A stretch of DNA of 28,025 bases from Candidatus Hodarchaeaceae archaeon (GTDB lineage: Archaea > Hadarchaeota > Hadarchaeia > Hadarchaeales > Hadarchaeaceae). The first letter of the stretch is position 1; each line of letters opens with the position of its first letter. Where the stretch lies: assembly GCA_030018135.1 (NCBI GenBank), contig JASEGJ010000013.1, positions 1-28,025 on the forward strand, in the 5' to 3' direction. The notes under the pieces were generated by a model that was not told the origin of the DNA, did no database searches, and saw only the letters and a program-made list of their open reading frames with translations. Made by a program: the position numbers and the translations under genes. Shown piece by piece: positions 13,190 through 15,664 of the stretch.

Positions 13190-15664
13190 ATGGGGGAAAT
13201 TAACGTAGCAATCGCAGGAGTCGGCAATTGTGCGTCCTCGCTGGTCCAAGGTATCGAGTGCTACAGGGAGGCAAGGGAGGACCAATTCATCCCGGGCTTG
13301 ATGCACGTCAACTTAGGCGGCTACCACATCCGCGATGTCAAATTCGTTGCGGCGTTCGATGTGGACGCGAACAAGGTCGGCAGGGATCTAGCTGAGGCAA
13401 TATTTACCCCGCCAAATTGCACGGTCAAATTCAGCGATGTTCCAAAGCTTGGGGTGGAGGTTGTAAAAGGGCCGGTCCTAGACGGCCTCGGCAAGTACCT
13501 CAAAAGCGTGATACCCCTCGACAGAACGCAGGAGGCGGTAGATGTGGCTCAAGTCCTCAAAGATGCGCGCGCGGACGTGCTGGTGAGTTACCTGCCCGTT
13601 GGTAGTTATGAGGCCTCGCGCCACTACGCGCAGCAGGCCATCAAGGCGGGGTGCGGCTTCATCAATTGCATCCCTGAGTTCATAGTTTCTAGCAAAGAAT
13701 GGGGGAAGCGCTTCACCGACGCAGGGCTGCCCTGCGCTGGCGACGACATAAAATCGCAGGTTGGGGCGACGATTCTTCACCGAACCCTCGCGAGGTTGCT
13801 GATCGACCGGGGCGTCAAGCTTGAGGAGAGCTATCAGCTCAACATCGGGGGAAACAGCGTCACGGGCGATGAGGAAATTTTGCTTGAAGTAGACGGCGCC
13901 CTGAATAGAACTAGGATCGGGGATTTTATCGACAAAATGATGGAAAAGTACGGTTTTGTGCAGGAGGGAGGGAAAGAGGTTTTAGAAACAAACAAGATGA
14001 AAGAAAAAATAAGATGCTTCACGATCAACGATGACTACAAGCTGATGTTAGCTCCGGTGACCAAGCTTATCCGTCACAAAATTGATGAATCACTTTTTGA
14101 GGTAACACTTGCAAAAGGCAATCGAATCAAAATCACAGGCGATCATAATTTATTCACCTTGGATGAAGATGGGAATCTCAAATCAATACCCGTGAAAGAG
14201 CTCAAACAAGGGCAGACTTTTATCGCCATACCAACCACCCTCTCGCCAGGCGAGGAGCTTTCGCACATAGATTTAACTTCACGCTTTAGCGACACGTGGG
14301 CGGCAAAGGTTGGCGATGGAGAATTTCTAAAAACCCACAATCATCCCGAGATCAGGATACCGGTTAAGTTCCCCGTTTCGAAGGAATTCCTCGATGTAAT
14401 TGGCCTCTGGCTAGCAGATGGTTCCTTTGATAGAAGTGGCAGCTCTAACTTGGAAATAGCCGTTGGGGATGAACCGGAATGTTTAGACGTTATAACCCGA
14501 TGGACAGGGGAATTTAACATCCGATGTGAACGCAGAGGGAAAGGTGGGGTCGCGGTACGAATACATTCAAAGACATTGGCATCTATAGCTAAGAAAATTT
14601 TTAGGTTATCTGGGAATTGTTATACCAAGCGGGTCCCAGGGTGGGTGTTTAACCTATCCGAAAAGCAAATTTGTGAGGTTTTGAAGGGTTACTTTAGTGG
14701 TGACGGCTGTGTTATAGGAAACCAAATCAGGTGGACATCTACGTCCTCTGGATTGGTAAGAGACATCCAGACTTTACTTTTACAGGTTGGGATCCATTCA
14801 ACGGTTTTTAAAGAAAACAAACGTGGATCGAAAACATCATACCGTTCAACAGCACCGTTCTGGCATGGTATCATCTCATCAAAGGAGGCACTTGGGGCAT
14901 TTCTGGAAAAAGTTGGATTCCTCCAGTCACGCAAGAATGAGATGGTCAAAAAAGTAGTTCAGAGGAGAAAATTTGAGAAGTCCTTCATCCCAAAGATTCG
15001 TCTAATAGAAGAGTCGGGGATCGAGCCAACTACTACACGAGATTTGCCAGCGATTGAAAAGAGAACAATCCTGTCCCAGCTCGACTGTGTGAAGGATAAA
15101 TCGATCAGTGAAAAACTCAAAAAACTCTGCACCGGAGAAATAGAATTTGTAAAAGTCAAGAACATTAAGAAGCTCGAGCTCGAACCACAATATGTCTACG
15201 ATTTGAGCGTCGAACATTATGAAAGGTTCATCTGCTCCAACATCTTAGTACACAACACCGACTTCCTAAATATGCTCGAGGAGGAGCGGCTGAGCTCGAA
15301 GCGCATAAGCAAGACGGAAGCGGTGGCAAGTCAGGTGCCCTACGAGGTGCCGCTCCGGATCGGCCCCAGCGACTACGTGTCATTCCTGAAGGACAACAAG
15401 ATATGCTACATCCACATGCGCGGCAGAAAGTTTGGTGACGTTCCGCTGACCATCGATGTCAAGCTCTCGGTTGAGGACTCGCCAAACAGCGCCGGCGTTG
15501 TGATCGATGCAATACGCGCGGTGAAGCTCGCGCTCGACCGCGGCATCGGCGGGCCGCTCATCGGCGTCTCCGCATACTTCTTTAAGCATCCACCGATACA
15601 GATGTCCGATGTCGAGGCCAAGCAGGCGGTTGAGGATTTCATATCCGGCAGAGGGGAGCGATAA
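13190..15664 (+). CDS. ino1: myo-inositol-1-phosphate (inositol-3-phosphate) synthase, intein-containing
   Basis: [53 protein letters not shown] and DSPNSAG motifs. The spliced length of 357 aa fits the family. Confidence 0.96.
13856..15256 (+). mobile_element. Intein with LAGLIDADG homing endonuclease (467 aa, residues 223-689)
   Basis: Starts Ser (SVTGDEEI), block [18 protein letters not shown] helices IGLWLADGS and LKGYFSGDG, ends YVYDLSV...NILVHN followed by Thr+1. More AT-rich than the exteins. Confidence 0.95.

What the first reader, a model, noticed from the sequence alone, without database searches (positions are those of the whole stretch)
13856..15256. Full-length homing-endonuclease intein inside inositol-phosphate synthase (ino1)
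Seen: a 467-aa Ser1...His-Asn/Thr+1 intein with both LAGLIDADG motifs, inserted in the conserved QLNxGGN|TDF motif and more AT-rich than the exteins. Established: inteins are enriched in DNA replication/repair and nucleotide-binding proteins, and I do not recall Ino1 as a commonly catalogued host. Inference: this may be a rarely described insertion site, possibly still mobile. Because Ino1 supplies the head group for inositol lipids, conditional splicing could gate lipid synthesis.
Basis: partly seen in the sequence, partly recalled or inferred. Interest (0 to 1): 0.75.

Follow-up and report, generated by a model that had tools for sequence, protein, structure and literature searches.

The report
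Mobile intein inside archaeal inositol-phosphate synthase
The only inositol-phosphate synthase gene of this Hadarchaeum-type archaeon is interrupted, inside its most conserved motif, by an ordinary self-splicing intein with its own DNA-cutting enzyme; the element type is well known, and only the host gene appears undescribed in print.

Summary
ORF 13190-15664 (+) encodes an 824-aa Ino1 (inositol-3-phosphate synthase). It carries a 467-aa intein (13856-15256) between N222 and T690 of the QLNIGGN|TDF motif. The intein has Ser1, a TxxH block B, two LAGLIDADG motifs with their Asp residues, a C-terminal His-Asn and Thr+1.

It is not unique. Among the 120 best long homologues, 79 are Ino1 with an intein, and 77 of these use this same site. 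They carry Hadarchaeum/Hadesarchaea, Aenigmarchaeota, Micrarchaeia, Iainarchaeum and Altiarchaeales labels. This scan had already reported the family on five other windows.

Presence is sporadic:
- Own order: 3 of 40 Ino1-bearing genomes.
- Aenigmatarchaeota sample: 3 of 36.
- Micrarchaeia-type sample: 2 of 29.

Nine of 10 Hadarchaeal intein-bearing alleles have an empty allele as their closest extein relative, up to 98% identical. Intein and extein trees conflict. Both endonuclease Asp residues are kept in 70 of 74 copies. One mini-intein and one frameshifted copy exist. This is the pattern of a homing cycle that is still running.

Seven literature searches and the 2015 intein census gave no paper on an Ino1 intein. 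Conditional splicing that gates lipid synthesis has no support. Verdict: a new member of a known kind, of modest interest.

The parts
13190..15664 (+). Ino1 (inositol-3-phosphate synthase) precursor gene, 824 codons plus stop, carrying the intein
   Evidence: ORF; Pfam and NCBIfam; the only PF01658 match in the 1.1-Mb genome
13190..13855 (+). N-extein, aa 1-222, ending ...YQLNIGGN
   Evidence: Aligns to 1GR0 residues 15-233; junction printed
13856..15256 (+). Intein, 467 aa (precursor aa 223-689), Ser1 to Asn467
   Evidence: Foldseek matches to PI-PkoII 2cw7, TliVMA 7qss and PI-PfuI 1dq3
13856..13894 (+). Splicing block A ([13 protein letters not shown]); Ser1 is the N-terminal nucleophile
   Evidence: Ser1 present in 74 of 74 aligned inteins
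14117..14155 (+). Splicing block B ([13 protein letters not shown]); Thr94 and His97 of the TxxH motif
   Evidence: T94 and H97 present in 74 of 74
14363..14935 (+). LAGLIDADG homing-endonuclease domain (intein residues about 170-360)
   Evidence: Pfam LAGLIDADG_3 at 494-576; this stretch is deleted in the mini-intein of L020
14396..14431 (+). LAGLIDADG motif 1 ([12 protein letters not shown]), catalytic Asp188
   Evidence: D188 present in 71 of 74
14675..14713 (+). LAGLIDADG motif 2 ([13 protein letters not shown]), catalytic Asp283
   Evidence: D283 present in 72 of 74
15188..15256 (+). Splicing blocks F and G ([23 protein letters not shown]); Asp449, His466, Asn467
   Evidence: D449, H466 and N467 present in 74 of 74
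15257..15661 (+). C-extein, aa 690-824, starting with Thr+1 (TDFLNML...)
   Evidence: Aligns to 1GR0 residues 233-367
12172..12777 (+). Upstream neighbour: archaetidylinositol-phosphate synthase (CDP-alcohol phosphatidyltransferase), which uses the Ino1 product
   Evidence: NF040950 at 4.7e-52, 176.6 bits, just under the 180-bit cut-off
12766..13098 (-). PadR-family regulator, divergent from ino1; the same neighbour is present at a DPANN locus
   Evidence: L018 neighbourhood

Best explanation
This is a canonical full-length intein that carries a two-motif LAGLIDADG homing endonuclease. It is inserted in frame between Asn222 and Thr690 of the QLNxGGN|TDF motif of the organism's single Ino1 gene. 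The following mechanism is inferred from conserved residues and textbook class-1 intein chemistry. The 824-aa precursor is inactive as an enzyme because the motif is split. Ser1 makes an N-O acyl shift. Thr+1 attacks the resulting ester. Asn467, helped by His466, cyclises and releases the intein. An O-N shift then leaves a normal 357-aa Ino1, which feeds the adjacent archaetidylinositol-phosphate synthase. The freed intein, acting as an endonuclease, cuts intein-free ino1 alleles at the roughly 40-bp stretch spanning the junction, and repair copies the intein in (homing). Across Hadarchaeota and DPANN archaea the element is in an ongoing cycle of gain, decay and loss. Shown here: anatomy, residues, fold, distribution and tree conflict. 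Inferred: that this copy splices and that its endonuclease is active now.
For: Anatomy and statistics. The exteins rejoin seamlessly when compared with 1GR0 and with empty alleles. S1, T94, H97, D449, H466 and N467 are each present in 74 of 74 family members, and both endonuclease Asp residues in 70 of 74, this copy included. The AF2 precursor model has pLDDT 85.9. Its exteins superpose on 1GR0 (TM 0.93 on the target) and its insert on PI-PkoII, TliVMA and PI-PfuI. This is the only Ino1 gene in a 93%-complete genome, and extein dN/dS against two relatives is 0.06-0.07, so the host gene is under selection and must be spliced. Mobility: intein present in 3 of 40, 3 of 36 and 2 of 29 Ino1-bearing genomes. 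Nine of 10 Hadarchaeal intein-bearing alleles have an empty allele as nearest extein relative, up to 98.0% identical. Presence is no more clustered on the extein tree than shuffled labels: 10 changes, shuffle mean 9.2. Two congeneric genomes have 93.8% identical exteins but 64.5% identical inteins, and a third is empty. AU tests reject the extein grouping on intein data (p 6e-5) and the intein grouping on extein data (p 0.0012). In 550 of 2628 pairs the inteins are more alike than the exteins. Endonuclease-domain dN/dS is 0.12 and 0.22 in the two DPANN pairs with unsaturated dS. Decay stages exist: a 295-aa mini-intein lacking the endonuclease (L020) and a frameshifted copy (L018).
Against: No experiment shows splicing or DNA cleavage. 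The AU test on the large 74-row tree (quick search, LG+G4) did not reject the two congeneric inteins as a clade (p 0.14), and the groups tested were named after the trees were seen. Synonymous sites are saturated for all Hadarchaeal intein pairs, so selection on this lineage's endonuclease could not be measured. No co-conversion tract is visible in extein DNA next to the junction. Seven of the 10 Hadarchaeal intein-bearing rows were picked by a search that could only return long proteins, and four genomes in the censuses were seeds or had been found beforehand through the intein itself (G000, G041, G042, G045). Occupancy figures are therefore rough.
Confidence: 0.87

Rival explanations
1. The intein is a domesticated, conditional switch. 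It is kept because splicing responds to temperature, redox or another signal and so gates inositol and archaetidylinositol synthesis after translation.
For: The precursor cannot be active, the gene is single-copy and it sits beside the lipid head-group transferase. Two cysteines, intein C54 and C460, are invariant in 74 of 74 copies although the splicing nucleophiles are Ser and Thr. Conditional splicing is reported for other archaeal inteins (Discussion passage of PMC4760082).
Against: Most close relatives do without it: 37 of 40, 33 of 36 and 27 of 29 Ino1-bearing genomes are empty. Alleles with 98% identical exteins differ in presence. The endonuclease, which a pure switch would not need, is conserved in 70 of 74 copies. 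Nothing here measures splicing.
Confidence: 0.06
2. The intein is a dead or decaying insertion. It can no longer splice, or its endonuclease is inactive, and the gene is on its way to becoming a pseudogene or is simply tolerated.
For: Decayed relatives exist: mini-intein L020, frameshifted L018, and three copies with one catalytic Asp replaced. The intein's GC3 (0.47) is far below the extein's (0.73), so it has not adapted to the host's composition.
Against: The reading frame is open through all 824 codons. Every splicing and endonuclease residue checked is intact in this copy. It is the only Ino1 gene, and the exteins evolve under strong constraint (dN/dS 0.06-0.07).
Confidence: 0.06
3. The insertion is an assembly or binning artefact: a chimeric join of an Ino1 gene with an intein from another gene.
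For: The window comes from a metagenome-type assembly of 45 contigs, and the insert has a different base composition.
Against: The same architecture with the same junctions is found in 77 of the 79 Ino1-intein proteins listed from independent assemblies and in 10 further genome loci. The frame is kept exactly at both ends. No other intein in this genome exceeds 27% identity to it.
Confidence: 0.01

Closest known systems
Inteins of archaeal type II/IV secretion-family (T2SSE, PilB-like) ATPases
   Same: These are the nearest relatives by sequence outside Ino1, at 28-35% identity and E 1e-85 to 1e-40. Where the match spans the whole intein they share Ser1 (SVTGD or SVVGD), a ...HN C-terminus, Thr+1 and a LAGLIDADG domain. 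Rooted on these and one reverse-gyrase intein, the Ino1 inteins form one clade with support 100.
   Different: The host protein is an ATPase and the insertion site is different (|TPE). No relative above 35% identity was found. This genome's own PilB-like intein is not a close copy.
PI-PkoII (Thermococcus kodakarensis DNA polymerase intein, PDB 2cw7/2cw8), PI-PfuI (1dq3), TliVMA and PhoVMA inteins (7qss, 7qst)
   Same: Same architecture of a Hint splicing domain plus a two-motif LAGLIDADG endonuclease. Foldseek E 1.7e-26 to 6e-21, target TM 0.64-0.81. Sequence match to 2cw7 at 1.4e-18.
   Different: Only 17-20% identity. Their hosts are a DNA polymerase, a ribonucleotide reductase (recalled for PI-PfuI) and V-ATPase subunit A, the classical replication and ATPase hosts. 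Those endonucleases are tested enzymes; this one is not.
Inteins in other archaeal non-replication enzymes, such as the intein-containing tetraether lipid synthase Tes (NCBIfam NF045703) and intein-containing RtcB (NF038162)
   Same: They show that inteins do sit in lipid and RNA-processing enzymes of archaea. Both models are hit through the intein part, at 61 and 26 bits.
   Different: NCBIfam has dedicated 'intein-containing' models for those hosts. None of the 13 families matched is such a model for Ino1. NCBI names Ino1-intein proteins 'LAGLIDADG family homing endonuclease' or 'hypothetical protein'.
The same Ino1 intein family reported earlier by this scan on other genomes (e1-1206975, e1-4707859, e1-1446464, e1-1885954, e1-1164898)
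   Same: Same host, same GGN|TDF site, same verdict: an ordinary element in an unusual host, recurrent in metagenomes, with no paper found.
   Different: Three of those notes describe DPANN or small uncultured archaea; the excerpts of the other two do not name a lineage. This window adds a Hadarchaeum-type lineage, occupancy counts, the tree-conflict tests, a second insertion site and two decay stages.

Membership tests
Intein (class 1, Hint-domain protein-splicing element) | In-frame insertion in a conserved host motif; removing it restores the uninterrupted host sequence | tested here: met
   1GR0 alignment is continuous across the junction. The 9 empty alleles printed read GGN|TDF or GGN|SDF, and 37 of 40 relatives with Ino1 lack the insert.
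Intein (class 1, Hint-domain protein-splicing element) | Nucleophile (Cys or Ser) at intein position 1 and Ser, Thr or Cys at +1 | tested here: met
   Ser1 and Thr+1. Ser1 in 74 of 74. The +1 residue is T in all but one junction printed (S in P0068).
Intein (class 1, Hint-domain protein-splicing element) | Block B TxxH, block F Asp, and penultimate His with terminal Asn | tested here: met
   T94, H97, D449, H466 and N467 are each present in 74 of 74. Block names are recalled from the intein literature.
Intein (class 1, Hint-domain protein-splicing element) | Hint fold | tested here: met
   Pfam Intein_splicing 7.2e-25. The AF2 model matches mini-inteins at rmsd 1.8-2.7 A, for example 5o9i, 7oec and 4e2t.
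Intein (class 1, Hint-domain protein-splicing element) | Actual protein splicing of the precursor | not testable with these tools
   Inferred only from intact residues, the single-copy host gene and constrained exteins.
LAGLIDADG homing endonuclease (two-motif, intein-encoded) | Two LAGLIDADG motifs, each with its acidic residue | tested here: met
   LWLADGS (D188) and FSGDGC (D283). Both Asp residues present in 70 of 74 relatives. Pfam LAGLIDADG_3 9.3e-19.
LAGLIDADG homing endonuclease (two-motif, intein-encoded) | Endonuclease fold as in solved intein endonucleases | tested here: met
   Foldseek matches over 480-590 alignment columns to 2cw7, 7qss and 1dq3, probability 1.00. The model's pLDDT is mostly 80-98 in this domain.
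LAGLIDADG homing endonuclease (two-motif, intein-encoded) | Site-specific cleavage of the intein-free allele, and homing | not testable with these tools
   Indirect support only: sporadic presence, intein-extein tree conflict, and 27 of 48 site positions invariant in 34 empty alleles.
Inositol-3-phosphate synthase (Ino1/MIPS), host protein | Matches the family models and a solved member over its full length once the insert is ignored | tested here: met
   PF01658 at 99.9 bits (cut-off 27). 1GR0 at 1.7e-124, covering chain residues 15-367. TIGR03450 scores 471 bits, below its 638-bit cut-off, plausibly because the match is split in two by the insert.

The most novel reading that the evidence does not exclude
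The Ino1 intein is more than a parasite. In the lineages that keep it, splicing is conditional, for instance through the two invariant non-catalytic cysteines C54 and C460 or through temperature. The cell's only route to inositol head groups, and hence to archaetidylinositol lipids, would then be switched after translation. A weaker variant of this reading: the shared intein family records DNA exchange between Hadarchaeota and DPANN archaea that live in physical contact.
Probability: 0.07. Interest if true: 0.7.

Novelty: new member of a known kind. Interest (0 to 1): 0.3.

Why it matters
Intein surveys find these elements mostly in replication, repair and nucleotide-metabolism ATPases (PMC4760082, passages read). 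An allele family in a membrane-lipid precursor enzyme widens the list of hosts. It also gives a clean natural system with empty, full-length, mini and frameshifted alleles in uncultured archaea for studying the homing cycle.

There is a practical consequence as well. NCBI labels these proteins 'LAGLIDADG family homing endonuclease' or 'hypothetical protein', and the equivalog model falls below its cut-off. Metabolic reconstructions of Hadarchaeota and DPANN genomes can therefore wrongly score inositol and archaetidylinositol synthesis as missing.

Tried and rejected
- Co-conversion tracts: 45-nt windows of extein DNA identity outward from the junction, for seven allele pairs, showed no clear step.
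- dN/dS on the Hadarchaeal inteins: dS is saturated, so no value was obtained.
- AU test on the 74-row quick tree: the clade of the two congeneric inteins was not rejected, p 0.14. Only the 15-row careful mixture-model tree rejected it.
- Direction of transfer from DPANN into Hadarchaeota: rejected as unsupported. Rooted on seven outgroup inteins, the 10 Hadarchaeal inteins form their own clade (support 97) in a basal three-way split and are not nested inside DPANN diversity. The low GC3 of the intein in high-GC hosts remains unexplained by this result.
- The search for related loci with the intein alone found only 8 GTDB loci because it needs exact peptide words. The phylum samples found further carriers (G087, G254).
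- Notes of this scan searched by place and by sequence gave nothing.
- The Cys54-Cys460 distance could not be measured, because model coordinates are not in the script box.
- Mapping to the A. fulgidus N255A mutant: the profile alignment (positions 146-224 to chain 180-256) places N255 a few residues upstream of the junction, probably at N218. The alignment itself was not printed, so this is tentative.
- InBase and nr could not be searched. One of three supplementary files of PMC4760082 was not searchable.
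Full report
**Observation**

The window holds one uninterrupted ORF at 13190..15664 on the + strand, 824 codons. They start [10 protein letters not shown] and end NILVHN, and the next residues are TDFLNML.

- Pfam finds Inos-1-P_synth (1.2e-28, two stretches), Intein_splicing (7.2e-25, residues 242-689) and LAGLIDADG_3 (9.3e-19, residues 494-576).
- NCBIfam finds inositol-3-phosphate synthase TIGR03450 at 2.1e-141. The score of 471 bits is under the 638-bit cut-off, plausibly because the match is split in two by the insert. 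It also finds intein_Nterm at residues 224-323.
- Against the PDB, the flanks align to M. tuberculosis Ino1 (1GR0) as query 3-222 to chain 15-233 and query 689-820 to chain 233-367. The host sequence is therefore continuous once the insert is removed.
- The intein has GC 0.435 and GC3 0.473, against 0.577 and 0.732 in the exteins.

**Anatomy**

I aligned 74 non-duplicate members of this intein family. Nine came from genome loci and 65 from the proteins. Left out were the contig-truncated L016, the frameshifted L018, the fragments P0032 and P0075-P0079, and six duplicates.

- Ser1, Thr94 and His97 (block B TxxH), Asp449 (block F), His466 and Asn467 are each present in 74 of 74.
- The acidic residues of the two LAGLIDADG motifs, D188 and D283, are present in 71 and 72 of 74.
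- Both are present in 70 of 74, the window's copy included. The exceptions are P0004 (D283N), P0063 (D188Y), P0074 (D188N) and L020, whose endonuclease is deleted.
- Block names are recalled from the intein literature.

An AlphaFold2 model of the whole precursor was built on a 72-sequence alignment. It has mean pLDDT 85.9 and pTM 0.62. Its only segments below 50 lie right at the two junctions, residues 219-221 and 691-700.

Foldseek places the exteins on 1GR0 (target TM 0.93). It places the insert on PI-PkoII (2cw7), the TliVMA intein (7qss) and PI-PfuI (1dq3).

**Host and context**

PF01658 matches nowhere else in the 1.1-Mb, 93%-complete genome, so this is the only Ino1 gene.

The gene immediately upstream (12172-12777) scores 176.6 bits on the archaetidylinositol-phosphate synthase model, just under its 180-bit cut-off. 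A PadR-family gene lies between them on the other strand. The same PadR, ino1 and transferase neighbourhood is seen at a DPANN locus, L018.

The split motif QLNIGGN|TDF is invariant at Q216, N218, G220, G221, N222, D691 and F692 across 72 homologues. By pattern it corresponds to the eukaryotic SYNHLGNNDG box. That correspondence is my own inference and was not aligned here. One paper's figure legend calls this box a putative catalytic site (PMC4859692, passage read; also PMC10804463, passage).

The precursor is therefore expected to be inactive until it is spliced.

**How common it is**

A length-restricted search (453-1442 aa) listed 120 best hits. Of these, 79 carry Ino1, intein and LAGLIDADG domains, counting the window's own protein.

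- 77 of the 79 show this junction. Of these, 75 show both ends, and P0032 and P0076 are fragments with one end.
- Source names include Candidatus Hadarchaeum, Hadesarchaea, Aenigmarchaeota, Micrarchaeia, Altiarchaeales and Bilamarchaeaceae.
- JGI already labels several 'myo-inositol-1-phosphate synthase/intein/homing endonuclease'.
- P0011, labelled Hadarchaeum, has the same extein as locus L003 from a same-family genome. This places the window's genome in that family.

In named GTDB species genomes, a pattern scan found eight further loci: Iainarchaeum, four Aenigmatarchaeota, Altiarchaeales, Micrarchaeia and an unclassified archaeon.

In a library of 1.84 billion representatives clustered at 50% identity, the intein alone finds one Ino1-type representative (1e-133). 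After that it finds only inteins of 35% identity or less. Of the 12 top hits I annotated, 11 sit in T2SSE/PilB-type ATPases and one in reverse gyrase.

**Occupancy**

| Sample | Genomes searched | With Ino1 | With the intein |
|---|---|---|---|
| Same family or order, own genome included | 41 | 40 | 3 (own, G010, G018) |
| Even sample of the phylum of an Aenigmatarchaeota carrier | 121 | 36 | 3 (one a mini-intein) |
| Phylum of a Micrarchaeia carrier | 101 | 29 | 2 |

G010 and G018 belong to one genus, whose third genome, G024, is empty.

The total is 8 of 105. It is somewhat inflated because four of the eight were seeds or were already known to carry the intein.

**Mobility**

On an extein tree of 36 empty and 10 intein-bearing Hadarchaeal alleles, intein presence needs 10 changes, of which at least 5 are forced by well-supported branches. 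That is no fewer than for shuffled labels (mean 9.2; 500 of 500 shuffles as low).

Nine of the 10 intein-bearing alleles have an empty allele as their closest extein relative. The extreme is P0007 against L041, at 98.0% identity.

The two congeneric carriers have 93.8% identical exteins but 64.5% identical inteins. One of them shares an 86% identical intein with P0010, whose extein falls in another part of the family.

AU tests gave these results:
- On a 15-row careful mixture-model tree, intein data reject a clade of the two congeneric inteins (p 6.2e-5).
- Extein data reject the grouping that the inteins prefer (p 0.0012).
- On the 74-row quick tree the first test gave p 0.14, so it was not rejected there.
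- All tested groups were chosen after the trees had been seen.

Across the family, 550 of 2628 pairs have inteins more alike than their exteins, by up to 69% against 51%.

Where synonymous sites are not saturated, the endonuclease domain shows dN/dS of 0.12 and 0.22.

Decay stages are present. An Aenigmatarchaeota Ino1 (L020) carries a 295-aa mini-intein lacking the endonuclease, at the same site. One copy (L018) is frameshifted.

Together these results match the textbook homing cycle of invasion, fixation, endonuclease decay and loss, and it appears to be still turning. The direction of any exchange between phyla is unresolved. Rooted on seven outgroup inteins, the Hadarchaeal inteins form one clade (support 97) in a basal three-way split and are not nested within DPANN diversity.

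**Mechanism**

The chemistry is the standard class-1 pathway, inferred from conserved residues and not measured here.
1. Ser1 makes an N-O acyl shift.
2. The acyl group is transferred to Thr+1.
3. Asn467, assisted by His466, cyclises and releases the intein.
4. An O-N shift restores the peptide bond.

The target of the endonuclease should be the empty site. In 34 empty alleles, 27 of the 48 positions around the junction are invariant. The window's flanks differ from their majority consensus at 6 positions, all of them among the variable ones.

**Literature**

- Seven full-text searches returned no paper about an Ino1 intein: intein with 'inositol-1-phosphate synthase', with 'inositol-3-phosphate synthase', with myo-inositol, archaea and homing endonuclease, with MIPS and inositol, with Ino1, with Hadesarchaea, and with DPANN.
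- The 2015 intein census (PMC4760082) has no occurrence of 'inositol' in its text, nor in two of its three supplementary files. The third could not be searched.
- InBase and nr were not available.
- This scan had already reported the same family on five other windows, with the same verdict.

**Verdict**

The element is real and canonical and was probably mobile recently. It is new only in its host gene and in this lineage. The idea that it gates lipid synthesis remains open but is unsupported, and its patchy presence argues against it.

Noticed in passing
Proteins P0078 and P0084; corresponds to window codons about 159-166 (GFIN|CIPEF): There is a second intein insertion site in Ino1. A roughly 520-aa Cys1...HN/Cys+1 intein with a LAGLIDADG domain sits between FIN and C(I/M)PEF, while GGNTDF (P0078) and the variant GGDTDF (P0084) stay intact. 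P0078's extein looks Hadarchaeal. Ino1 therefore has at least two intein sites, and this window's would be the downstream one.
   Followed up: partly
L020:2326-4302 and L018:1733-4247: Two decay stages of the same intein are seen. L020 (Aenigmatarchaeota) has a 295-aa mini-intein with the whole endonuclease core deleted. L018 has a frameshift near the intein's N-terminus that splits the gene into two overlapping ORFs; this could be a true pseudogene or an assembly error.
   Followed up: partly
window 14015-14017 and 15233-15235 (intein Cys54 and Cys460): Two cysteines are invariant in all 74 inteins, although the splicing nucleophiles are Ser and Thr. Their function is unknown (structural, or a redox pair). 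Their distance in the model could not be read.
   Followed up: no
window 12172-13098 and L018:1325-1642, 4251-4853: A PadR-family regulator and an archaetidylinositol-phosphate synthase flank ino1 both in this Hadarchaeal window and at a DPANN locus. This suggests a conserved inositol-lipid gene cluster with its own regulator.
   Followed up: partly
G000 contigs C25, C5, C11, C45, C17 (loci L048-L052): The genome carries inteins in at least five other genes: a PilB-like T2SSE ATPase (no LAGLIDADG domain detected in that protein), a Hel308-type helicase, RtcB, the RFC small subunit and CDC48. All are classical ATPase or nucleic-acid hosts. None is more than 27% identical to the Ino1 intein.
   Followed up: partly
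window 15609-16544: A PfkB-family sugar-kinase ORF overlaps the last 56 nt of ino1 if its first ATG is used. Its best matches are weak (ribokinase, iolC-type kinase), so its substrate is unclear, and a link to inositol is only a guess.
   Followed up: no
Proteins P0080-P0083: These are Ino1-like proteins of 520-590 aa with two copies of the QLNxGGN(M/T)DF motif about 160-200 residues apart and no intein domains. They may be partial tandem duplications or fusions.
   Followed up: no
Source names: NCBI names Ino1-intein proteins 'LAGLIDADG family homing endonuclease' or 'hypothetical protein'. The Ino1 function is hidden in those annotations.
   Followed up: no
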